Assembly (NCBI GenBank): GCA_963766795.1
Contig: CAVYBN010000006.1
Span: forward strand, 1-63,466
Direction: 5' to 3'
Length of the DNA: 63,466 nt
DNA from: Candidatus Parcubacteria bacterium
GTDB lineage: Bacteria > Patescibacteriota > Minisyncoccia > Phycocordibacterales > PALSA-1337
Every line of letters starts with the position of its first letter. The stretch's first letter is position 1. Below the pieces are notes generated by a model, which saw only the letters and a program-made list of their open reading frames with translations, did not search any database and was not told where the DNA came from. Shown here in pieces: positions 22,421-56,542 of this stretch. The position numbers and the translations under genes were made by a program.

Positions 22421-23086
22421 TCAATGTGCCAATGACAGCCCATAGGTGTTCTTGAACCCGGATCTTCTTAGCGTACCAACCGCATCTCTCATAGTGCTGC
22501 CGGTCGTAATCACGTCGTCGATTACCACTACAAATAGGTCGGACCTATTTAGGTCGGACCTCGGATTCACGGCGAAAGTGTCTTGGATGCTCTTCAATCG
22601 TTCGCGCCGATCCTTCAAAGTTTGCCTTGAAGTGTGGCGCACGCGAATGAGCAGGTCGTGCGCAAAAAGAAAATGCTTATCTGAATCGAGTCTAGCAATC
22701 GCGTCGGCGATCAGTTCGCACTGATTGAAGCCGCGCTCGCGGCGGCGTGCCTTGGTGATCGGCATCGGAATAATTAGAATGCGCATGTCTTTTGGTATCA
22801 CTGATTCGAATGAACGCAAGATGCGAAATAGCGCGTGTGCGGCAAGCGAAGCGCCTTTCAAAGACTTCTTGTATTTTATGCTCCAGACCAGATGAAAGAC
22901 CCGCTCGTCCTTATAATGAAAGACGGAGCACGCCTCTGGAATAGGAGCATCAATGGCGCGCGGCAAGAGCTTGAATAAGCCGCTCTCATCCATAGCCAAA
23001 GCCTCTCGCTCCGCCGGATGGACGGGGAACAGGGCGTCGGCCACCGTATTAAAAAAAGCGCTGAAGGCGCGGGTCAGAGGCATACG
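22421..23086 (-). CDS. comF: ComF/ComFC-family phosphoribosyltransferase-like competence protein
   Basis: RERGFNQCELIA, VVIDDVITTGST. Confidence 0.88.
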   Translation of the reverse strand, partial: RMPLTRAFSAFFNTVADALFPVHPAEREALAMDESGLFKLLPRAIDAPIPEACSVFHYKDERVFHLVWSIKYKKSLKGASLAAHALFRILRSFESVIPKDMRILIIPMPITKARRRERGFNQCELIADAIARLDSDKHFLFAHDLLIRVRHTSRQTLKDRRERLKSIQDTFAVNPRSDLNRSDLFVVVIDDVITTGSTMRDAVGTLRRSGFKNTYGLSLAH

Positions 23087-26724: not shown

Positions 26725-28470
26725 ATGAGCGTACTCGACATCCTGCTCGAAAAGAAGCTGATCAGCAAGGATGACGTCCGCGAAGCGCGCAAGCGGATGT
26801 CTTCCGGCGCCACTCTGGAAGAAGCCCTGATCTCGGAAGGCGTCAAGCCAGACGACATAACTGCCGCCCGCGGCGAATTTCTGAATATCCCGGTCCGTGC
26901 CATCGCCGAGACTTCCGTGCCGTTCGAGGTCCTCGAATACGTCCCGCAGGAATCCGCCGAGCATTACCGTTTCGTGCCGATCGGCCTCAAAGAAGGCACG
27001 CTCGAGGTCGGCGTCGTCGATCCCGACAACATGGAGGCTCGCGACGCCTTGAATTTCCTGGCGGCCAAGAAGAACATCCCGTACAAGATGTATCTCATCA
27101 CCATCGACGACTTCCAGAAAGTCGTCGAGATGTACAAAGGCCTGACCGGCGAAGTCTCGCGCGCCCTGACCGAGCTCGAGTCCGAGCTCTCGGTTGAGAC
27201 CGAAGCCGTCAAGAAAGCACCGGGATCGCCGGCTCCGGGAGCGCCCGGCAAGGGCGACAAGAACGCTCCGGCCGAAGAGACGATCATCATCGAGGACGCG
27301 CCGGTGGTCAAGATCGTGGCGACCATCGTCCGCTACGCCGTCGAGGGAGAAGCTTCCGACGTCCACATCGAGCACATGCGCGACAAGGTCCGCGTGCGCT
27401 TCCGCGTGGACGGCGTGCTCACGACCAGCCTGGTCCTGCCGCCGCAGGTGCATTCGGCGGTGGTCAGCCGCATCAAAGTCCTTTCCAACATGCGCTTGGA
27501 CGAGAAGAGGAAGCCGCAAGACGGGCGCTTCTCGGCCAGGATCGACGGCCGGCGCATCGATTTCCGCGTCTCCACATTCCCGGCTTATTACGGCGAGAAA
27601 GTCGAAATGCGCATCCTCGACCAAGCCAAAGGCCTGCACGCTCTCGACGACATGGGAATGACGCCCGCCAATCTCTCTATGATCAAGCAAGCCATCGACC
27701 GTCCCTACGGCATGATCCTCATCACCGGTCCGACCGGTTCCGGCAAGTCGACGACGCTCTATTCTCTGCTGAACGAGGTCGACCGCGAGAGCTACAATGT
27801 TCTTTCGCTCGAAGACCCAGTTGAATATCAGATGGAAGGCGTCAGCCAGTCGCAGGTGCGGCCGGAGATCGGCTATGACTTCAGCTCCGGTTTGCGCACG
27901 ACGCTGCGCCAAGACCCGGACATCATCATGGTGGGTGAGATCCGAGACAAGGAGACCGCTCAACTGGCCGTCCAGGCGGCCTTGACCGGCCACCTGGTCT
28001 TTTCGACTTTGCACACCAACAACGCCGCCGGCATCATTCCGCGCTTGGTCGACATGGGCGTCGACCCGTATCTGATCGCGCCGACCCTCATCCTCGGCGT
28101 GGCCCAGCGCCTAGTCGGCCTCTTGCCGCCCAACGGGGGAGAGCTGGTGCCCGTCGAGGGCAGCATCAAGGCCATGATCGACCGACAGTTCAGCGACCTG
28201 CCGGCCGAATACAAGAAGAACATCCCCTGGAGCGACAAGGTGGCCAAGATCAAGGTCACCCCGGAATCGCCGCGCGGCACCCGCGGGCGCATGGCGGTCT
28301 TCGAGATGTTCACCATGGACAAGGACGTCGAGAGCATCATCCTCCACAATCCGACCGAGACCGAGATCGTCAAGTCCTTGCGCGCCAAAGGCATGCTGAC
28401 TTTGAAGGAGGACGCCATCATCAAGGCCTTCGAGCGCAAGATACCCATTGAAGAGGTGAATAAGCTATAG
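26725..28470 (+). CDS. pilB: Type IV pilus extension ATPase PilB/GspE
   Basis: ASDVHIE, PQDGRF, GPTGSGKSTTL (Walker A), LRQDPDIIMVGEIRD, GHLVFSTLHTN. Confidence 0.96.
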   Translation: MSVLDILLEKKLISKDDVREARKRMSSGATLEEALISEGVKPDDITAARGEFLNIPVRAIAETSVPFEVLEYVPQESAEHYRFVPIGLKEGTLEVGVVDPDNMEARDALNFLAAKKNIPYKMYLITIDDFQKVVEMYKGLTGEVSRALTELESELSVETEAVKKAPGSPAPGAPGKGDKNAPAEETIIIEDAPVVKIVATIVRYAVEGEASDVHIEHMRDKVRVRFRVDGVLTTSLVLPPQVHSAVVSRIKVLSNMRLDEKRKPQDGRFSARIDGRRIDFRVSTFPAYYGEKVEMRILDQAKGLHALDDMGMTPANLSMIKQAIDRPYGMILITGPTGSGKSTTLYSLLNEVDRESYNVLSLEDPVEYQMEGVSQSQVRPEIGYDFSSGLRTTLRQDPDIIMVGEIRDKETAQLAVQAALTGHLVFSTLHTNNAAGIIPRLVDMGVDPYLIAPTLILGVAQRLVGLLPPNGGELVPVEGSIKAMIDRQFSDLPAEYKKNIPWSDKVAKIKVTPESPRGTRGRMAVFEMFTMDKDVESIILHNPTETEIVKSLRAKGMLTLKEDAIIKAFERKIPIEEVNKL

Positions 28471-28557
28471 GGGACAGGGTGCAGGGTACAGTAAAAAATC
28501 AGAATTCAACATTTAATTTATACTTTCTACACCCTGTACCCTGTACCCTGTACCCTG
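28470..28557. repeat. GGGTACA heptamer-arm element family B, copy 1
   Basis: gggacagggtgcagggtacag ... ccctgtaccctgtaccctgtaccctg. Confidence 0.9.
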
Positions 28558-30203: not shown

Positions 30204-30276
30204 AGGGTACAGGGGTCAGGGAACAGGGTACAGTAAAACTCAAAACCACACCCTGTACCCTGTACCCTGTACCCTG
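30204..30276. repeat. GGGTACA heptamer-arm element family B, copy 2
   Basis: agggtacaggggtcagggaacagggtacag ... ccctgtaccctgtaccctgtaccctg. Confidence 0.9.
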
Positions 30277-37444: not shown

Positions 37445-37999
37445 ATGAATCTTCAATCTTCAATCTTCAATATTCAATCGCGCAGTCGCGCCTTCACTCT
37501 GATTGAATTGATCGTCGTCATCGCCATCATCGCGATCTTGACCGCCTTGATTCTGCCGGCTCTGGCCGGCTCAAAAGGCAAGGCTCGCGACGCGCAGAGA
37601 GTTTCCGATATCAGCCAATTGCAGGGCGCTTTGGAATTGTATTTTGACAGGTGCGGAGATTATCCGGCTCCTGATAATAATAAGATAGACAGCACAGTTT
37701 TAACACAAACTGATAGCAATTGTCCGTCCGGCGTCACATTCCAGACTTATATATCCCAAGTGCCTACGCCGCCAGCCGGAGCAGGTCAATCTGCCTATGA
37801 TTATGCGGTTATGAGCACTTCCGGCGGTCTTGCAGTGAACTATGTTTTGCATGCTGCGCTTGAATCGCCTAATGCGGCCGGCGCAAAAAGCCTCAATGGA
37901 ATGCCGACTCCGCCAAACGGTTATAGTTGGTCAGGATCGGCCAGCTATACATGCAGCAATACCAGCGGTTCTGTCGATTATTGCGCGACTTCTAACTGA
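37445..37999 (+). CDS. Type IV pilin 4/pseudopilin
   Basis: RA|FTLIELIVVIAII, KARDAQRVSDI, LELY...YP; the leader is made of AATCTTC heptamers. Confidence 0.9.
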   Translation: MNLQSSIFNIQSRSRAFTLIELIVVIAIIAILTALILPALAGSKGKARDAQRVSDISQLQGALELYFDRCGDYPAPDNNKIDSTVLTQTDSNCPSGVTFQTYISQVPTPPAGAGQSAYDYAVMSTSGGLAVNYVLHAALESPNAAGAKSLNGMPTPPNGYSWSGSASYTCSNTSGSVDYCATSN

Positions 38000-40321: not shown

Positions 40322-40951
40322 ATGAATCATCAAACAGGGTACAGGGTACAGGGTACAGAAAAGAAGAAACATGTTTTTTTCCCTGCACCCTGCACCCTGC
40401 ACCCTGAACCCTTGCGTTCCCGCGGTTTTACCCTCGTCGAGACCCTAGTCGCCATCACCGTCCTCATGATCGCCATCGCCGGGCCGCTGGTCGTGGCCAG
40501 CAAAGGGCTATTCGGCGCTTTGGCTTCGAAAGACCAGATGATCGCCGCGTATCTGGCGCAGGAGAGCATGGAGACGATCAAGAACATCAGAGATAACGAC
40601 ATAGCTGCCAACGCGAGTTCCTGGGTGTTGGCCAATACTTCAGGCTCTCCGACGCATTTGACGGAATGCGGCAATATAGGAGGATTCTGTGACGCCAGCG
40701 CCGTGGACAGTCCGTCGTTTCAGGTCTGTCCATTTAACGGCGTCGCGCAACCCTGCCCGATATATCTGGTGAACGGATATTACAGTCACAACAGCGGCGG
40801 CACGCAGACTCTCTTCACGCGCTACTTCTACGTGTCGAATCTAAATGTCGACGGCAAAGAATTGCTAGTCACGGTGGTGGTCGATTGGCATGAAGGCACG
40901 ACGCCTTATGAGATATCGCTGTCGAGCGAGCTGACGGATTCGACGAGATAA
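40322..40951 (+). CDS. Minor pilin (PilV-like) with a heptamer element in the leader
   Basis: RG|FTLVETLVAI, YLAQESME; leader TGYRVQGTE...PCTLHPEP. Confidence 0.88.
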   Translation: MNHQTGYRVQGTEKKKHVFFPAPCTLHPEPLRSRGFTLVETLVAITVLMIAIAGPLVVASKGLFGALASKDQMIAAYLAQESMETIKNIRDNDIAANASSWVLANTSGSPTHLTECGNIGGFCDASAVDSPSFQVCPFNGVAQPCPIYLVNGYYSHNSGGTQTLFTRYFYVSNLNVDGKELLVTVVVDWHEGTTPYEISLSSELTDSTR

Positions 40952-40953
40952 AT

Positions 40954-41526
40954 ATGAACAATTTTCAATTTTCAATTTTCAATTTTCAATCCCGATCTCG
41001 CGGCTACACTCTGCTCTTCGCCGTGCTGGTGGCCGCTCTGGTCTTGGGCGTAGCAGTTTTCATTCTGGAGATCAGCACCAAGCAGTATGAGCTATCGGCC
41101 TCGGCCAGAGATTCCATGTATTCTTTCTACGCCGCCGATTCCGGCATAGAATGCGTGGCTCTGGATCAGCTGTACGCGACTTCCAGCTCGGCGATCAATT
41201 TCACTTGCGGCAATGACGCGGTGACTTGGACAGTTATCCCGATTTCCGATCCCAACGGTATTTATAAAGACGACGGCTATTACTATGAGCTGGATCTCAA
41301 TCTGCAGTTCTCCAGTCCGACTTGCGCGGTCATAGACATCGTGGCGTTCTATTCGCCGCAGCCTAACAGTTATGAGCATGATATTACGACATCCAGAGGA
41401 TACAACCACTGCGTGAATATCGGAACTTCAGGCGCGCCGAATTGGGTTCCCGACACCTCCAATCCCAATACCGTGGAGCGCGCCCTCCAGCTTTCTCATA
41501 CGACGGCGCCGCCCGGCAGCTATTGA
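40954..41526 (+). CDS. PilX-like minor pilin
   Basis: RG|YTLLFAVLV (no Glu5), AFYAADSGIEC-like motif; the leader is made of AATTTTC heptamers. Confidence 0.8.
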   Translation: MNNFQFSIFNFQSRSRGYTLLFAVLVAALVLGVAVFILEISTKQYELSASARDSMYSFYAADSGIECVALDQLYATSSSAINFTCGNDAVTWTVIPISDPNGIYKDDGYYYELDLNLQFSSPTCAVIDIVAFYSPQPNSYEHDITTSRGYNHCVNIGTSGAPNWVPDTSNPNTVERALQLSHTTAPPGSY

Positions 41527-41567: not shown

Positions 41568-43835
41568 ATGAAAACCAGCGCGTCGCGGGAAACCATAGGC
41601 CGTTTGGACAAGCTCAAGGAAGCGATAGAGAAATATCGCTATGAATATCACGTGCTCGACAAGGCCAGTATCTCACCTGAAGCGCTGGATTCGTTGAAGC
41701 ACGAGCTCGTTGAGATCGAAGCGAAATATCCTGAATTGGTGACCCCGGATTCGCCGTCACAGCGCGTGGCGGGGAAGCCCTTGCCGGAATTCAAGAAGGT
41801 CCGCCACGAAGTACCGCAATGGTCGTTCAACGACGCTTTTTCGCCGGAGGAGATCCGTGAATTCGACGCGCGGGTGAAGCGGTTCCTCGTCCAAGCTGGC
41901 GTGAATGATCCGCCGACATATACTTGCGAGCATAAGATAGACGGATTGAAGATCGTGCTCTCCTATGAGAACGGCTTATTGAAACAAGCGGCCACGCGCG
42001 GCGATGGAACGATCGGCGAAGATGTCACGATGAATGTCCGGACGATCGAGTCGATACCATTAAAGCTCAAGGGGACAGGGTACAGGGGACAGGGTACAGG
42101 AAAGACTGCACCCTTCACCCTGAACCCTGTACCCTCTCTTTTGATCGTTGAAGGCGAAGTCTGGATGGCCAAGAGCACGCTGGCTATTTTGAATAAGGAA
42201 CAGGCCAAGAAGGGTCTGGAGCCCTTCGCAAATCCACGAAACCTAGCCGCTGGATCTATCCGTCAATTGGATCCGAAGATGACGGCGTCGCGGCATCTGG
42301 ATTCGTTCATCTATGATCTGGCGCAGATAATACAGGGTACAGGGTACAGGTTACAGGGTACAGAAAAGCACAAACACCCTGAACCCTGGACCCTGAACCC
42401 TGTACCCTTTCCTCCGACCCAGCATGAAGAGCTCGAATTCCTGCGGTCGCTTGGCTTCAAGGTAAACTCGCATTACCGGCATTGCCGTGATATCGAGGAA
42501 GTCATCGCTTACTGGAATGAGTGGCAGAAGAAGATGCCCCGCCAGGACTACTGGGCCGACGGGGTGGTCGTCAAAGTGGATTTGCGCAAGCACCAGGAAA
42601 AGCTCGGCTACACCGGCAAGGCGCCGCGCTGGGGCATCGCCTTCAAATTCCCGGGCCAGGAAGTCACGACCGTCCTTGAAGATATCACATTCCAGATCGG
42701 TCGCACCGGCGTGATAACGCCAGTAGCAAATCTAAAGCCGGTTTCAATAGGCGGTTCGACTGTTTCGCGTGCCACGCTCCACAACGAGGACGAGATCAAA
42801 CGCCTCGACTTGCGGCTCGGCGACACGGTCATCTTGAAGAAAGCCGGCGATGTCATTCCCGATATCATTTCAGTCGTCAAGGAATTGCGGCCGGACGACT
42901 CAAAGTCTTTCGTCTGGCCCTCGCATATCCCAGCCTGCGGCGGCGATAGCCGCATTGAAAGAGTCCCCGGCGAAGCGGCTTGGCGCTGCGTCTCCAAAGA
43001 TTCCTTCGCGCAGCTCAAACGACGCTTCTATTACTTCACTTCCAAGAAATGCTTTGACATAGACGGCCTTGGCCCAAAGATCATCGACCTCTTGTTTGAT
43101 CACCAATTGATCGCTTCATTCGACGATATCTTCACTCTAAAGAAAGGCGACCTTTCGAGCTTGCCGCGCTTCGGCGAGAAGTCGGTCGACAACTTATTGG
43201 CAGCGATCGAAAAGGCGCGCAATGTGACGCTTCCGCGATTCCTGGCGTCATTGTCGATCCCTCAAGTCGGCGAAGAGACGGCGTATGACGTGGCGAAACA
43301 CTTTCAACAGGGTACAGGGCACAGGGTACAGGGTACAGAGGGACTCAAAACACATAACTCAAAAGTCAAAACTGAATCACATTCTGTACCCTTCACCCTG
43401 AACCCTGTACCCTCTTCTGCCATTTCTGCAATCACAAAAGCTTCAAAAGATGAATTCGAATCTATCTACGGCGTCGGTCCTATTGTTGCGCAATCTTTGG
43501 CTGACTGGTTTGCTGATAAGGACAACCAAGCACTCGTTAAAAGGCTTTTGAAGCAGGTGACGATTGAAGCCGGCGATTCAGGAACGACTGGCGCGGCTGG
43601 CGGCAATCAAAAGCTTGCAGGGCAATCATTCGTCTTTACGGGAACATTGCCGACTCTCGAAAGGGAAGCCGCCCAACAAATGGTACGCGATCACGGCGGC
43701 GACGTTTCGGGTTCAGTTTCAAAAAAGACCTCATTCGTGGTGGCCGGCAGTGACGCCGGCTCGAAGCTCGATAAGGCGCGCAAACTCGGAGTCAAGATCG
43801 TCAATGAAGAGGAGTTTGTGAAGATTATCGGATAA
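41568..43835 (+). CDS. ligA: NAD-dependent DNA ligase with three in-frame repeat insertions
   Basis: EHKIDG (adenylated Lys), ATRGDG, ANPRN, DGVVVK, QIGRTG, C-terminal BRCT (FVFTG...GSKL.KA). Confidence 0.98.
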   Translation: MKTSASRETIGRLDKLKEAIEKYRYEYHVLDKASISPEALDSLKHELVEIEAKYPELVTPDSPSQRVAGKPLPEFKKVRHEVPQWSFNDAFSPEEIREFDARVKRFLVQAGVNDPPTYTCEHKIDGLKIVLSYENGLLKQAATRGDGTIGEDVTMNVRTIESIPLKLKGTGYRGQGTGKTAPFTLNPVPSLLIVEGEVWMAKSTLAILNKEQAKKGLEPFANPRNLAAGSIRQLDPKMTASRHLDSFIYDLAQIIQGTGYRLQGTEKHKHPEPWTLNPVPFPPTQHEELEFLRSLGFKVNSHYRHCRDIEEVIAYWNEWQKKMPRQDYWADGVVVKVDLRKHQEKLGYTGKAPRWGIAFKFPGQEVTTVLEDITFQIGRTGVITPVANLKPVSIGGSTVSRATLHNEDEIKRLDLRLGDTVILKKAGDVIPDIISVVKELRPDDSKSFVWPSHIPACGGDSRIERVPGEAAWRCVSKDSFAQLKRRFYYFTSKKCFDIDGLGPKIIDLLFDHQLIASFDDIFTLKKGDLSSLPRFGEKSVDNLLAAIEKARNVTLPRFLASLSIPQVGEETAYDVAKHFQQGTGHRVQGTEGLKTHNSKVKTESHSVPFTLNPVPSSAISAITKASKDEFESIYGVGPIVAQSLADWFADKDNQALVKRLLKQVTIEAGDSGTTGAAGGNQKLAGQSFVFTGTLPTLEREAAQQMVRDHGGDVSGSVSKKTSFVVAGSDAGSKLDKARKLGVKIVNEEEFVKIIG

Positions 43836-44356: not shown

Positions 44357-45923
44357 ATGAAAATCGATTTGAAGACACTAACGATCGTCAAAGCCCACGA
44401 GCACTTGAAGAAAGGCGATTTTACCGCGGTCGAGCTGACACAAGCTTATTTGGATGCGATCAAATCTAAGAATAAGGATATTCACGCTTATCTAGAGGTC
44501 TTTGATGATGCTCTTGACGCAGCCAGGAAAGCAGACAAAAAGATTCAAGATTCAATCCGCCATCCGCCAGCTGGCGGAGCGGACAAGAATGAAGAGTTTC
44601 CAATGCTTACAGGAATACCGATGGCGATCAAAGACAATATTTTGATCAAAGGCCATATCGCCAGCTCGGCTTCGAAGATCCTGGAAAATTACCGTGCGAC
44701 CTATTATGCGACCGCGGCCTTGAAGCTGGCCAAAGAAGGAGCAGTTTTTCTCGGCCGCACAAACATGGATGAGTTCGCCATGGGCGGCTCGACGGAGAAT
44801 TCGGCGTACGGGCCGACGCATAATCCGCATGACTTGAGCCGAGTTCCAGGCGGGACTTCCGGCGGCTCGGCGGCGGCTGTGGCAGCCGGCATGGCTCTGG
44901 CGGCACTAGGTTCCGACACGGGCGGCTCCATCCGCCAGCCAGCCGGCTTCTGCGGTGTGGTGGGCCTGAAGCCGACATACGGAGCAGTTTCGCGCTACGG
45001 CTTGATGGCGGCGGTCTCTTCATTTGATCAAATTGGCCCTATCGCTAAGACAGTCGGAGATGCGGAGATTGTTTTCAGTGTGATTAGAGGGAGAGATGCG
45101 AAAGATGGAACCACCATTCAAGATTCAAGATTCAAGATTCAGGATTCAAGATTCGGGGGCAGAGACAAAATCTGAAATCCGAAATCCAAGACTATCTTCA
45201 AAGAAGCCAGTGATCGGCATTCCAAGGTCGTTTCTTTCAATGGGCGGGATAGATCCGGCAGTCAAAGCGGCATTTGATGCTAGCGAGAAGAGATTCAAAT
45301 CTTTGGGGTACGAGATCAAGGACATCGATCTGCCGAATAATCAATACGCTCTGCCTGTCTATTACATATTGAACTTCGCGGAAGTCTCTTCCAATATGGC
45401 GCGCTATGACGGCATGCGCTACGGTCTGCATGTAGACGGAAAGGACGGCATCGAAGACTATTTCAAAACGCGCAGGGCTGGGCTTGGCAGGGAAGTCATT
45501 CGTCGCATCCTTCTTGGGACATACGTGCTTTCAGCCGGCTATTACGACGCATATTACAATCGTGCCAACGCCGTGCGCCGCATGATCACGGACGATTTCA
45601 ATAAAGCATTCGATCCGCTCCGCCAGTCGGCGGATGGCGGAGTCGATCTCATCGCGATGCCGACGACGCCGGGTCCGGCTTTCAAGATCGGCGAAAAAGC
45701 CAGCGACCCGATGGCCATGTACCTGGAGGACATATTCACTGTCACGGCTAATCTGACGGGATTGCCGGCGATCTCGATACCTTGCGGGGTGGTTGAACCG
45801 AGGTCGGACCTCGGAGCAACGGACAGAGGTCCGACCTCTTTGCCGATCGGTTTGCAATTGACGGCAAGACACGGCGATGAAGAGGCGCTATTCGAAGCAG
45901 GCAAAGAATTCCTCGGAGAATGA
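44357..45923 (+). CDS. gatA: Amidotransferase subunit A (frameshift in the heptamer tract near 45116-45160)
   Basis: AIKDNI, GRTNMDEFAMG, PGGTSGGSAAAV, GSDTGGSIRQPA, RRILLGTY, YLEDIFTV.ANL.GLPAIS. Confidence 0.96.
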
Positions 45924-56069: not shown

Positions 56070-56542
56070 AATAATCAATAACCAAGTATTCCAATAACCA
56101 AACTCTGCTGACCGTGTTTGGTTATTGTATCTTGGTTATTGTGATTTGAGGATGATTGTAGAGAGGATCCTTTTGATTTCATCACCCTCTTGCATCAACT
56201 TCATCATTCTCTTCTTAAGGGTCGGATTTGCTTCAGCGACTAGCTCCAGCCAATGAAGGCACTCCTTGGATTCTCTACGAGATATTTTTAGGCGCAGGAT
56301 GAAATCCTTTTTACCGAGAGCATCATTCGCTTCTCGGTAATTCGCGCCTATTGATCCGGCTGATCCCGCGACCTGACCGGATAAACGCCCATTGACGGCA
56401 TTTTTTGGCAACGCATTGCACAAGCGAATCACCCTCTTGGCAAAATCTGTGGTCCGTTTTTCTAGGTTAAATTGCATATTTGTATGTTTGGTCATTGTGA
56501 TTTGTAATTTGTTTGGTCATTGTATCTTGGTTATTGGTTATT
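56070..56542 (-). mobile_element. Heptamer-arm element carrying a four-helix-bundle gene
   Basis: 26-bp direct repeats (56116-56141 and 56511-56536, one mismatch) flank the gene; an inverted arm lies at 56070-56103. Confidence 0.65.
56136..56477 (-). CDS. Four-helix-bundle protein (TIGR02436/23S rRNA IVS-protein family)
   Basis: NLEKRT, SAGSIGANYREA, KDFI..LKIS.RE..E..HWLEL. An alternative ATG at 56495 lies inside the repeat arm. Confidence 0.92.
   Translation of the reverse strand: MQFNLEKRTTDFAKRVIRLCNALPKNAVNGRLSGQVAGSAGSIGANYREANDALGKKDFILRLKISRRESKECLHWLELVAEANPTLKKRMMKLMQEGDEIKRILSTIILKSQ

What the first reader, a model, noticed from the sequence alone, without database searches (positions are those of the whole stretch)
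42070..43413. Three independent in-frame GGGTACA heptamer hairpins inside the essential DNA ligase gene
Seen: insertions at 42070-42135 (GTGYRGQGTGKTAPFTLNPVP), 42332-42408 (GTGYRLQGTEKHKHPEPWTLNPVP) and 43307-43413 (GTGHRVQGTE...SVPFTLNPVP). All belong to the family found intergenically at 28470 and 30204 and in a pilin leader at 40334. They add roughly 80 aa, consistent with the 755-aa length. Established: Rickettsia palindromic elements do the same kind of in-frame insertion. Inference: a repeat family that creates new peptide loops, with ligA as a hotspot.
Basis: partly seen in the sequence, partly recalled or inferred. Interest (0 to 1): 0.68.

Follow-up and report, generated by a model that had tools for sequence, protein, structure and literature searches.

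The report
In-frame heptamer hairpin repeats in ligA
The only NAD-dependent DNA ligase gene of this tiny (CPR/Patescibacteria) bacterium carries three copies of a small hairpin-forming repeat built from 7-base units. All three are read through as extra surface loops, and related species hold different repeats in the same three loops, so selfish DNA keeps recycling a few tolerant spots in an essential enzyme.

Summary
ligA (41568-43835, 755 aa) holds three in-frame, stop-free hairpins at 42070-42135, 42334-42408 and 43309-43413. Their arms are GGGTACA-type heptamer arrays.

Against 100 orthologues they add 19, 23 and 37 residues, 79 in all. They lie at the three loops that most often carry insertions in this clade. 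AlphaFold gives the inserts low confidence and leaves the flanking ligase secondary structure in place.

The family has about 22 copies in the 0.92-Mb genome and is almost confined to this species. Thirteen copies lie in frame in genes: IleRS, SecA, DnaE, ParB, two NifS, MnmA, LigA, a pilin leader and an MBL-fold hydrolase.

One "filled" copy, outside the window, has the same asymmetric arms around a PF05635 gene (23S-rRNA intervening-sequence protein, or IVP, similar to Avd).

Copies cluster strongly: 7 neighbour gaps are under 2 kb against about 1 expected. In the closest ligA relatives the same loops hold other hairpin elements, often the same element at two sites of one gene. A sister lineage has two copies that are 98% identical.

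Best reading: these are tolerated, translated selfish hairpin repeats that work like Rickettsia palindromic elements. They spread by local copying and turn over at already-occupied permissive loops.

The parts
41568..43835 (+). ligA, NAD-dependent DNA ligase, 755 aa; host gene and the only full-length ligA match in the assembly
   Evidence: ORF. Pfam domains. E. coli LigA 2OWO at E = 6.6e-156. The own-genome search found one full-length match.
42070..42135 (+). Hairpin 1 (site 1): 4 GGGKACA units, a 12-nt loop and 4 TGNNCCC-type units. It encodes about GTGYRGQGTGKTAPFTLNPV. It sits between the equivalents of E. coli E162 and N163, 10 residues before the motif III glutamate.
   Evidence: The net gain is +19 aa over the 6-aa modal spacer. 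pLDDT is 52-61 with a dip below 50 at residues 179-181.
42334..42408 (+). Hairpin 2 (site 2): encodes about QGTGYRLQGTEKHKHPEPWTLNPVP, in the loop after the FxYD strand of the adenylation domain (E. coli about V229-L235)
   Evidence: The net gain is +23 aa. pLDDT is below 50 for residues 258-278. Sister lineages hold a different hairpin, element X, at this spot.
43309..43413 (+). Hairpin 3 (site 3): the long-loop subfamily, with GTCAAAA-type heptamers in the loop. It is exactly 105 nt (35 codons) and lies between two helix-hairpin-helix units (E. coli F532 to L535).
   Evidence: The gain is +37 aa over the 8-aa modal spacer. pLDDT is below 50 for residues 584-615. The loop is 72-79% identical to the copies in SecA, IleRS and NifS-2.
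40336..40412 (+). Same family, in frame in the leader peptide of a type IV pilin-like protein (ORF 40322-40951), upstream of the G|FTLVE cleavage motif
28469..28556 (-). Same family, non-coding copy in the opposite orientation
30204..30275 (-). Same family, non-coding copy in the opposite orientation. It shares a flank (TGATATACT) with the copy at 28470.

Best explanation
The three segments are gene-less copies of a lineage-specific, hairpin-shaped selfish repeat whose arms are inverted arrays of 7-nt units.

**Why they can be read through.** One arm is GGGTACA/GGGGACA. The other, read as its G-strand, is GGGTTCA/GGGTGCA. Because 7 is not a multiple of 3, an array of such units passes through all three frames. 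These particular units contain no stop codon on either strand. So any copy whose total length is a multiple of three, and whose loop is open, can be read through.

**Why they survive.** Copies persist only where the protein tolerates 20-40 floppy extra residues. In LigA that means three short surface loops. The ligase is therefore most likely made with the three extra loops and still works. This is inferred.

**How they spread.**
- Whole elements, arms plus loop, are copied to distant loci. This is shown by near-identical loops in six loci.
- They are copied even more often to nearby sites. This is shown by clustering and by same-element pairs inside one gene.
- Occupied loops are re-used. An older hairpin element at site 2 was replaced by the GGGTACA element in this lineage. 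This is inferred by parsimony on the ligA tree.

**Link to a gene cassette.** The family shares its asymmetric arms with one cassette that encloses a PF05635 four-helix-bundle gene (IVP, similar to Avd). The hairpins are to that cassette roughly what a MITE is to its parent element. Whether the PF05635 protein takes part in copying is unknown.
For: **Insertions, not ancestral sequence**
- The spacers are 25, 32 and 45 aa against modal 6, 8-9 and 8 aa in 100 orthologues.
- Empty sites are seen in L055, L028, L007 and P0007.

**Frame kept**
- All 13 intragenic copies are stop-free and in frame. Their hosts are mostly housekeeping genes: IleRS, SecA, DnaE, ParB, two NifS, MnmA, LigA (three copies), plus an MBL-fold hydrolase and a pilin leader.
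- Conserved LigA domains continue in the same frame after each insert.

**Loops are permissive**
- Insertions of at least 8 aa in 100 LigA cluster at only six internal positions. These three positions are the most used: 9, 16 and 20 cases.
- The AlphaFold inserts have low pLDDT, and the flanking strands and helices are kept.
- The model matches solved LigA structures.

**Copy and paste of whole elements**
- The long-loop subfamily has loops 70-90% identical in IleRS, ParB, SecA, LigA site 3, NifS-2 and C7:24873.
- The arm asymmetry is conserved across copies.

**Lineage specificity**
- The arm pattern hits 111 times in this genome and 0 times in 55 of 60 congeners.

**Local copying**
- Seven neighbour gaps are under 2 kb against 0.98 expected; none of 20,000 permutations reached this.
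- There are four copies in the nifS-nifU-fdx operon. Three, at its gene junctions, share a loop type.
- L027 has two 119-nt copies of another heptamer-armed hairpin at ligA sites 1 and 2 that are 98.3% identical.
- P0003 has the same composite element at sites 1 and 3.

**Turnover**
- Element X sits at site 2 in P0003, P0004 and P0005, which bracket the window on the tree.

**Cassette link**
- C7:36462-36900 has GGGTKCA...TGTACCC arms around a PF05635 gene.
- Five of six PF05635 genes here have inverted heptamer arms. So do 17 of 20 in relatives, 14 of them with period 7 dominant.
- The closest PF05635 protein (67% identity against 52% or less for the rest) sits at a syntenic site in G017 with the most similar arms, GGGTATA/GGGTAGA.
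Against: - No RNA or protein data.
- No target-site duplication and no conserved target beyond the A...T that completes the outer heptamers.
- No transposase is associated. The only Y1/RAYT gene is flanked by a different palindrome, and the reverse transcriptase genes are not next to GGGTACA arms.
- Nothing links the PF05635 protein to mobility except shared arms.
- No strain-level empty-site allele was found. The nearest relative has 88% core identity, so recent movement into ligA is not directly caught.
- The replacement scenario rests on a tree whose inner nodes have only 68-79% support.
- No DNA was available for P0003 and P0006.
- The AlphaFold model is of moderate quality: mean pLDDT 71.7 from 17 sequences. 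The OB domain is also poorly modelled.
Confidence: 0.75

Rival explanations
1. The hairpins are made on the spot, by slippage of 7-nt units plus template switching that creates the inverted arm, rather than copied from elsewhere. The family resemblance would then reflect a shared mutational bias and not mobility.
For: - The genome has a general excess of period-7 arrays of many different units: 114 arrays against 13-19 for periods 5 and 6.
- Arbitrary heptamer arrays are common across bacteria.
- There is no target-site duplication and no transposase.
- The two IleRS alleles differ at 13.6% of positions in the element but 2.2% in the downstream flank.
Against: - Six distant loci share loops of about 45 nt that are 70-90% identical.
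- The arm asymmetry (GGGTACA against GGGTTCA/GGGTGCA) is the same in nearly all copies and in the PF05635 cassette.
- The exact unit is essentially confined to this genome among 60 congeners.
Confidence: 0.1
2. The inserts are kept because they are useful. Possibilities are RNA structures in ligA mRNA (pausing, stability, processing) or added peptide loops with a role in the ligase.
For: - 12 of 13 intragenic copies have the GGGTACA arm first on the sense strand.
- In all 13, the sense RNA hairpin is weaker than the antisense one, by 2.5-12 kcal/mol.
- Five copies would stay open if flipped, yet all five have the same orientation.
- Occupancy of the three loops persists across the closest clade.
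Against: - The content of each loop differs between close relatives, and many orthologues have no insert at all.
- The same element sits in unrelated proteins and in non-coding junctions.
- The inserts are predicted to be disordered.
- For 8 of 13 copies the orientation bias is explained by stop codons in the flipped loop.
- The three ligA copies may not be independent events.
Confidence: 0.07
3. The hairpins are not translated. They would be cut out of the mRNA and the ends rejoined, or bypassed by the ribosome, so the mature ligase has normal length.
For: - The elements share their design with rRNA intervening sequences, which RNase III excises (PMC4990558).
- The stems are strong: -42 to -51 kcal/mol on the sense strand.
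Against: - All 13 intragenic copies are multiples of three in net length and stop-free. Removal before translation would not require this.
- Non-coding copies do carry stops.
- RNase III excision of intervening sequences leaves the RNA in pieces, which would destroy an mRNA.
- No RNA-ligation or bypass signal is known for such elements, and Rfam gives only sub-threshold hairpin matches.
Confidence: 0.04
4. Assembly or binning artefact: the repeats were wrongly joined into ligA.
For: The assembly does contain a fold-back artefact at the end of contig C1 that mirrors one copy of the element. The IleRS gene is broken across two contigs at an element.
Against: - Three separate in-frame insertions fall exactly in the three variable loops.
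- Flanking sequence is continuous and conserved.
- Independent assemblies of relatives show hairpin inserts at the same loops.
Confidence: 0.02

Closest known systems
Rickettsia palindromic elements (RPE; Ogata et al. 2000/2002, as summarised in PMC10969869)
   Same: - Both are small palindromic repeats dispersed in a reduced genome.
- Many copies are inserted in frame in unrelated housekeeping genes.
- They are read through as extra peptide segments compatible with the fold.
- No transposase is known for either.
   Different: - No sequence relation was tested or is expected.
- The arms here are tandem 7-nt arrays, and the elements are shorter: 62-136 nt against about 100-150 nt.
- The family shares arms with a PF05635 gene cassette.
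- Copies cluster locally, and the same loops are re-used by different families in sister species.
G-rich heptameric simple-sequence repeats of Xanthomonas and Nostoc (GGGAATC, GGGGAYT; Rehm et al. 2015, PMC4692102) and cyanobacterial STRR heptanucleotide repeats (Mazel et al. 1990, from my own knowledge)
   Same: - Both have a 7-nt unit beginning with a G-tract.
- Arrays are typically three or four units long.
- Many occur as convergent inverted pairs able to form stem-loops (70-75 such pairs per Xanthomonas genome).
- They stand out as an over-representation of period 7 among repeats.
   Different: - The published repeats are reported as under-represented in coding regions and were discussed as G-quadruplex regulators.
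- Here 13 of 22 hairpins are inside genes and in frame.
- Here whole hairpins including the loop are copied.
ORF-bearing intervening sequences of 23S rRNA (for example Coxiella burnetii helix-45 IVS with the S23p ORF, PMC4990558). The PF05635 family is related to the Avd protein of diversity-generating retroelements (PMC10053308).
   Same: The filled copy (C7:36462-36900) has the same design: terminal inverted repeats forming a long stem around a PF05635 gene.
   Different: - The filled copy lies between protein genes, not in 23S rRNA.
- The ligA copies carry no gene.
- Excision by RNase III would be lethal in an mRNA and is not supported.
- Heptamer-built arms are not described for rRNA intervening sequences in the papers I read.
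REP/REPIN elements with their RAYT (Y1 transposase) gene
   Same: Both are short hairpin repeats that multiply within a genome without target duplications. This genome does hold such a system, and its type of palindrome occupies ligA loops in relatives.
   Different: - The single Y1 gene here (C9:66441-67034) is flanked by GAGGTCGGACCTAC palindromes, not by GGGTACA arms.
- No Y1 gene lies near any GGGTACA copy.

Membership tests
Rickettsia palindromic elements (behavioural class: in-frame palindromic repeats) | Dispersed multi-copy palindromic repeat family within one genome | tested here: met
   About 22 hairpin copies on 11 contigs
Rickettsia palindromic elements (behavioural class: in-frame palindromic repeats) | Many copies inserted in frame into unrelated protein genes without breaking them | tested here: met
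   Thirteen intragenic copies, all stop-free and in frame. Empty sites are seen in orthologues.
Rickettsia palindromic elements (behavioural class: in-frame palindromic repeats) | Inserted segment is translated and lies on the protein surface | tested here: inconclusive
   The inserts are variable loops with low pLDDT, and the flanking structure is kept.
Rickettsia palindromic elements (behavioural class: in-frame palindromic repeats) | Sequence homology to the RPE-1 to RPE-10 consensus sequences | not tested
   No RPE sequences were at hand. Heptamer arms are not a described RPE feature, so I do not claim family membership.
MITE (miniature inverted-repeat transposable element) | Terminal inverted repeats | tested here: met
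   Arms of 2-6 heptamers, 81-88% complementary
MITE (miniature inverted-repeat transposable element) | Target-site duplication flanking the element | tested here: not met
   The flanks share only the A...T that completes the outer heptamers. Site 3 is a clean 105-nt addition with no duplication.
MITE (miniature inverted-repeat transposable element) | Parent element with the same ends that encodes a transposase | tested here: not met
   The only gene-bearing copy with these arms encodes a PF05635 four-helix-bundle protein, which is not a known transposase.
REP/REPIN with RAYT | A Y1 (RAYT) gene flanked by copies of the repeat | tested here: not met
   The only PF01797 match is flanked by GAGGTCGGACCTAC palindromes. 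No GGGTACA arrays lie within 1.5 kb.
Heptameric G-rich SSRs (GGGNATC type, PMC4692102) | Tandem 7-nt units with a G-tract, about four units, often in convergent pairs | tested here: met
   The main units are GGGTACA (58 occurrences) and GGGGACA (13). Arrays have 2-6 units, and all 22 elements are inverted pairs.
Heptameric G-rich SSRs (GGGNATC type, PMC4692102) | Under-represented in coding regions | tested here: not met
   13 of 22 hairpins are inside ORFs.
23S rRNA intervening sequence with PF05635 ORF | Long terminal stem enclosing a PF05635 ORF | tested here: met
   This holds for the filled copy C7:36462-36900 only. The ligA copies have no ORF.
23S rRNA intervening sequence with PF05635 ORF | Located in a 23S rRNA helix | tested here: not met
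   The filled copy lies between protein genes, and the ligA copies lie in a coding sequence.
23S rRNA intervening sequence with PF05635 ORF | Excised from the transcript by RNase III | not testable with these tools
   No RNA data. No RNase III gene was found in this 85%-complete assembly, though 39 of 40 relatives have one.

The most novel reading that the evidence does not exclude
Heptamer-armed hairpins may be products of an undescribed copying process tied to PF05635 (Avd-like) cassettes.
- This process would preferentially write a hairpin into, or over, an existing hairpin nearby.
- That would explain three things: why one gene carries the same element at several loops, why sister species carry different elements at identical positions, and why elements nest inside each other's loops.
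- The excess of G-U pairs on the strand that matches the PF05635 gene's sense strand (74 against 32) hints at an RNA-level step.
- The genome does encode reverse transcriptases.
- If true, this would be a new class of mobile DNA. It would also give a function to the long-unexplained heptamer repeats of bacteria and to the PF05635 "intervening-sequence protein".
Probability: 0.15. Interest if true: 0.85.

Novelty: new variant of a known kind. Interest (0 to 1): 0.6.

Why it matters
- **Tolerance of essential enzymes.** Enzymes of the smallest bacterial genomes, such as ligase, the polymerase III alpha subunit, SecA and an aminoacyl-tRNA synthetase, tolerate repeated invasion by selfish hairpin DNA. 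Much of the protein-length variation between related CPR species at a few loops comes from this turnover.
- **Annotation and structure work.** Such segments should be treated as repeat-derived, not as lineage-specific functional domains.
- **Mobile DNA.** Three poorly understood things now appear as one family, which makes their mechanism testable:
  - bacterial heptamer repeats;
  - PF05635 "intervening-sequence" cassettes;
  - RPE-like in-frame insertions.
- **Literature.** I found no paper describing this in CPR/Patescibacteria within the searchable library.

Tried and rejected
1. **GGGTACA as a horizontally spread signature: rejected.** The exact 22-mer hits at least 119 loci in many phyla. 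None of 80 foreign loci had a PF05635 gene, and only 6 of 80 had a detectable inverted-array partner within 900 nt.
2. **A RAYT or reverse transcriptase next to the arms: not found**.
3. **Known RNA family: none.** Rfam gives only sub-threshold miRNA-precursor hairpin matches.
4. **Loss of RNase III explaining tolerance of hairpins in mRNA: not supported.**
   - The gene is missing from this assembly.
   - The assembly is only 85% complete.
   - Relatives that have RNase III also carry hairpins in ligA.
5. **Strain-level empty-site alleles: none found.** This was checked with an identity look-up, the metagenome contig scan and the 5.8-billion-protein search.
7. **DNA for P0003 and P0006: not held**.
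8. **Loops of physically close copies being more alike overall: not significant.** Mean identity was 0.48 against 0.43, p = 0.15. The three copies at the gene junctions of the C11 (nifS-nifU-fdx) operon do share a loop type.
9. **Target-site duplication: none**.
10. **A technical error corrected.** In my first pass I read only the first record of a multi-record file. This was fixed.
Full report
**1. What is there**

The window holds one long ORF at 41568-43835 (+), 755 aa. It has every domain of NAD-dependent DNA ligase: adenylation, OB fold, HhH and BRCT. It matches E. coli LigA (2OWO) at E = 6.6e-156.

In that alignment three stretches of the query face gaps in the E. coli protein. At the DNA level each stretch is an imperfect hairpin. 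The left arm is an array of GGGTACA/GGGGACA units. The right arm is an array of TGAACCC/TGCACCC/TGTACCC units.
- The hairpins lie at 42070-42135, 42334-42408 and 43309-43413.
- GGGTACAGG with up to one mismatch occurs 43 times in the window against 5.3 expected.

**2. They are insertions**

I collected 100 LigA orthologues: 20 from related genomes and 80 from metagenome contigs. I then measured the spacer between conserved anchors.

| Site | Modal spacer | Orthologues at the mode | This gene |
|---|---|---|---|
| 1 | 6 aa | 76 of 99 | 25 aa |
| 2 | 8-9 aa | 56 of 100 | 32 aa |
| 3 | 8 aa | 70 of 99 | 45 aa |

- The excess is 79 aa. This accounts for the 755-aa length against the usual 670-690 aa.
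- A codon-level alignment shows site 3 as a clean 105-nt (35-codon) addition.
- Sites 1 and 2 are net gains of 57 and 69-72 nt, with one or two flanking residues changed.
- No target-site duplication is visible.

**3. Where they sit in the protein**

In E. coli numbering:
- Site 1 lies between E162 and N163, ten residues before the motif III glutamate E173.
- Site 2 lies in the loop around V229-L235.
- Site 3 lies between F532 and L535, between two helix-hairpin-helix units (read from the alignment).

An AlphaFold2 model built on a 17-sequence alignment has a mean pLDDT of 71.7.
- It gives the inserts low confidence: 52-61 at site 1, below 50 for residues 258-278 and for 584-615.
- It keeps the strands and helices on either side.
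- The model's best matches are solved LigA structures.
- The model is only moderate, and its OB domain is also poorly predicted. It supports "floppy loops" but does not prove surface exposure.

Across the 100 orthologues, insertions of 8 aa or more fall at only six internal positions. These three are the most used, with 9, 16 and 20 cases.

**4. The family in the genome**

The window is contig C6 of a 916-kb, 18-contig assembly that is about 85% complete. Database names of related LigA proteins place it in Patescibacteria/Parcubacteria.

Period-7 tandem arrays are strikingly over-represented: 114 arrays, against 46, 13, 19 and 5 for periods 4, 5, 6 and 8. They involve about 40 different units at about 90 loci.

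The GGG..CA hairpin family has 23 complete copies in the assembly.
- One, at C1:56469, is the mirror image of C1:55709 in a fold-back artefact at a contig end.
- The C1 and C2 copies are two alleles of one IleRS site.
- So there are about 21-22 real copies.

Thirteen copies lie inside ORFs and all are in frame and stop-free. The hosts are IleRS (two alleles), a pilin leader, LigA (three copies), SecA, an MBL-fold hydrolase, ParB, two NifS paralogues (at the same loop), DnaE and MnmA.

The arms are open in every frame because seven is coprime with three and neither unit nor its complement contains a stop. That also explains why every copy gives a peptide of the type GTGYRVQGT...CTLNPEP, whatever its phase.

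**5. Copy-and-paste, not only local slippage**

- A long-loop subfamily has loops 70-90% identical on different contigs: IleRS, ParB, SecA, LigA site 3, NifS-2 and one non-coding copy.
- The two arms differ in a fixed way. One is GGGTACA (58 units) or GGGGACA (13). The other, read as its G-strand, is GGGTTCA (30), GGGTGCA (22) or GGGTACA (18).
- A shared asymmetry and shared loops argue for copying of whole elements.
- The arm pattern hits 111 times in this genome and not at all in 55 of 60 congeneric genomes.
- The cross-phylum occurrence of the exact (GGGTACA)x3 array is not meaningful. A composition-matched control array is just as common.

**6. Link to a gene cassette**

Earlier notes of this scan pointed to PF05635 genes enclosed by heptamer arms, so I tested this here.
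- The genome has six PF05635 genes. Five have inverted heptamer arms, each with its own unit.
- One, C7:36515-36823, is enclosed by GGGTTTA-GGGTACA-GGGTGCA-GGGTGCA on the left and (TGTACCC)x3 on the right. These are the same units with the same asymmetry as the hairpins.
- In relatives, 17 of 20 PF05635 genes have flanks that are inverted complements (z of 4 or more). In 14 of these, period 7 dominates.
- The closest PF05635 protein is in genome G017: 67% identity, against 52% or less for the other 24. It sits before an orthologous downstream gene and has the most similar arms, GGGTATA/GGGTAGA.

So the arms and the gene diverge together, and the cassette is older than the burst of gene-less copies. 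That the protein takes part in copying is only an inference. PF05635 is a four-helix-bundle family related to Avd of diversity-generating retroelements (PMC10053308). It is known from rRNA intervening sequences (PMC4990558), not as a recombinase.

**7. Clustering and turnover**

*Clustering.* Copies are strongly clustered.
- Seven neighbour gaps are under 2 kb against 0.98 expected; none of 20,000 permutations reached that.
- Besides ligA with the pilin leader, four copies lie in the nifS-nifU-fdx operon. One is inside nifS and three are at gene junctions. The three junction copies share a loop type.

*The closest ligA genes.* These came from the large protein search, were aligned and placed on a tree.

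| Gene | Core identity to the window | Site 1 | Site 2 | Site 3 |
|---|---|---|---|---|
| Window | - | GGGTACA hairpin | GGGTACA hairpin | GGGTACA hairpin |
| P0002 | 88% | occupied, other content | occupied, other content | occupied, other content |
| P0003 | 88% | composite element | element X | same composite element |
| P0004 (= L027) | 87% | element X | element X | empty |
| P0005 | 83% | empty | element X | short insert |
| P0006 | 81% | empty | occupied, other content | KGTGYRIQGIGKT |
| P0007 | 78% | empty | empty | empty |

- Site 1 is occupied in all four members of the inner clade, each with different content. It is empty in every gene outside that clade.
- Site 2 holds "element X" in P0003, P0004 and P0005, which bracket the window on the tree. 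The simplest history is that X was there first and was replaced by the GGGTACA hairpin in the window's lineage.
- At site 3, P0003 shares the right junction with the window (...TLHPK|SSAIS against ...TLNPVP|SSAIS). P0006 has KGTGYRIQGIGKT there.

*Same element at several sites of one gene.* This holds in three of the four closest genes.
- The window has GGGTACA at three sites.
- P0003 has a heptamer-armed hairpin with a nested "IPAKAGIQ" element at sites 1 and 3.
- L027 has X at sites 1 and 2. Its two copies are 119 nt long and 98.3% identical, and they also have heptamer arms, AGCAGGA.

*More distant relatives.* The same loops hold still other palindromes, including ones resembling the REP of this genome's RAYT gene.

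Together this says that the loops are permissive. Once occupied they stay occupied while the content turns over, and copying is preferentially local. The inner tree nodes have only 68-79% support, and I had no DNA for P0003 and P0006. The replacement history is therefore probable, not proven.

**8. Orientation**

- Twelve of 13 intragenic copies have the GGGTACA arm first on the sense strand.
- In all 13 the sense-strand RNA hairpin is weaker than the antisense one. The mismatches are A-A or A-C on the sense strand but G-U or U-U on the other. G-U pairs number 32 against 74.
- For eight copies the flipped element would introduce stop codons, which explains the bias.
- For five (the pilin leader, LigA three times, MnmA) it would not, yet all five have the same orientation.
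- This is weak evidence, since the ligA copies may not be independent. It hints at selection against strong stems, or against RNase III substrates, in mRNA.
- The orientation in host genes is opposite to that of the PF05635 gene in the filled cassette.

**9. How it most likely works**

*Shown:*
- The segments are insertions.
- The frame is kept.
- The loops are variable.
- The family is dispersed and clustered.
- The hairpins share their arms with a PF05635 cassette.
- Different elements occupy the same loops in relatives.
- A recent intragenic duplication exists in a sister lineage.

*Inferred:*
- The hairpins are translated and the ligase is active.
- An older element at site 2 was replaced.
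- Copying is local.

*Unknown:* the enzyme and the intermediate.

I put 0.75 on the statement that these are tolerated, translated, selfish hairpin repeats that spread and turn over at permissive loops. I put about 0.15 on the bolder idea of a dedicated, PF05635-linked hairpin-writing process.

**10. Comparison with what is known**

- **RPE.** In behaviour this is the RPE phenomenon (PMC10969869). I do not file it as an RPE, because homology was not tested and the architecture differs.
- **MITE.** It fails two MITE criteria: no target duplication and no transposase parent.
- **REP/RAYT.** It fails that criterion too.
- **Heptameric repeats.** In unit structure it resembles the G-rich heptameric repeats of Xanthomonas and Nostoc, including their convergent pairs (PMC4692102). 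Those are reported as depleted from coding regions.
- **rRNA intervening sequences.** The filled copy has that design but is not in rRNA.
- **Literature.** I found no paper on in-frame heptamer hairpins in CPR bacteria.

I rate it a new variant of a known kind.

**11. Limits**

- The genome is incomplete.
- No gene caller was available, so "intragenic" rests on long ORFs with recognisable products.

Noticed in passing
window 40954-41526 (also 37447-37474 and 40322-40951): Leader peptides of type IV pilin-like proteins are built from heptamer arrays. One example is MNNFQFSIFNFQS from (CAATTTT)x4, just before the RSRG|YTLL cleavage motif. The neighbouring pilin leader holds a whole GGGTACA hairpin. 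Leaders are cleaved off, so they look like another tolerant place for repeats.
   Followed up: partly
window 45116-45141 (3' end of the ORF at 44357-45175, gatA-like): An array of GATTCAA units gives ...TIQDSRFKIQDSRF... near the end of this open frame. The same unit forms the arms of the PF05635 cassette at C9:52806-53117. It also gives DSRFKKQE at ligA sites 1 and 3 of relative G011 (L002).
   Followed up: partly
window 56070-56542: A PF05635 gene (56160-56459, minus strand) is enclosed by inverted arrays of a different unit (AACCAA/ATAACCA type). It is another filled cassette, of another family.
   Followed up: partly
genome contig C9:66441-67034 (outside the window); related palindromes at window 22535-22562 and 45800-45838: A Y1/RAYT-like gene (HFH motif) is flanked on both sides by GAGGTCGGACCTAC/GTAGGTCGGACCTC palindromes, a classic REP-RAYT arrangement. 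About 50 half-site matches occur in the genome. Palindromes of this type occupy ligA loops in relatives L002, L003 and L005.
   Followed up: partly
genome contig C1:54558-57690 and C2:857-1759: The end of C1 is a fold-back (palindromic) assembly artefact that mirrors the IleRS region with its hairpin. C1 and C2 carry two alleles of that IleRS segment. They differ at 13.6% of positions inside the element but 2.2% in the 500 nt downstream, so the element may evolve faster than its host gene.
   Followed up: partly
genome contigs C11:37405 and C13:23552: Two paralogous NifS (cysteine desulfurase) genes carry GGGTACA hairpins at the same loop (...IREIA.VI...|insert|L.HTDASQAA...). One has a short loop and the other a long loop.
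   Followed up: no
whole assembly: No RNase III gene (PF14622, PF00636) was found in this 85%-complete assembly, while 39 of 40 relatives have one. This is probably a gap in the assembly. It is worth checking, because this genome also has the largest burst of long hairpins in mRNAs.
   Followed up: partly
genome contig C7:69334-72420 (SecA): SecA carries one GGGTACA hairpin near its N-terminus. It also has two copies of another repeat (..[25 protein letters not shown]..). In relative P0003 this same repeat is nested inside the ligA hairpins at sites 1 and 3.
   Followed up: no
genome contigs C7:7144-7839, C8:55627-56226 and C8:557-1042: There are two clear and one weak reverse-transcriptase domain genes. 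The one at C8:55627 lies about 3 kb from the PF05635 cassette at C8:59380-59691. I did not examine whether they form a diversity-generating retroelement.
   Followed up: no
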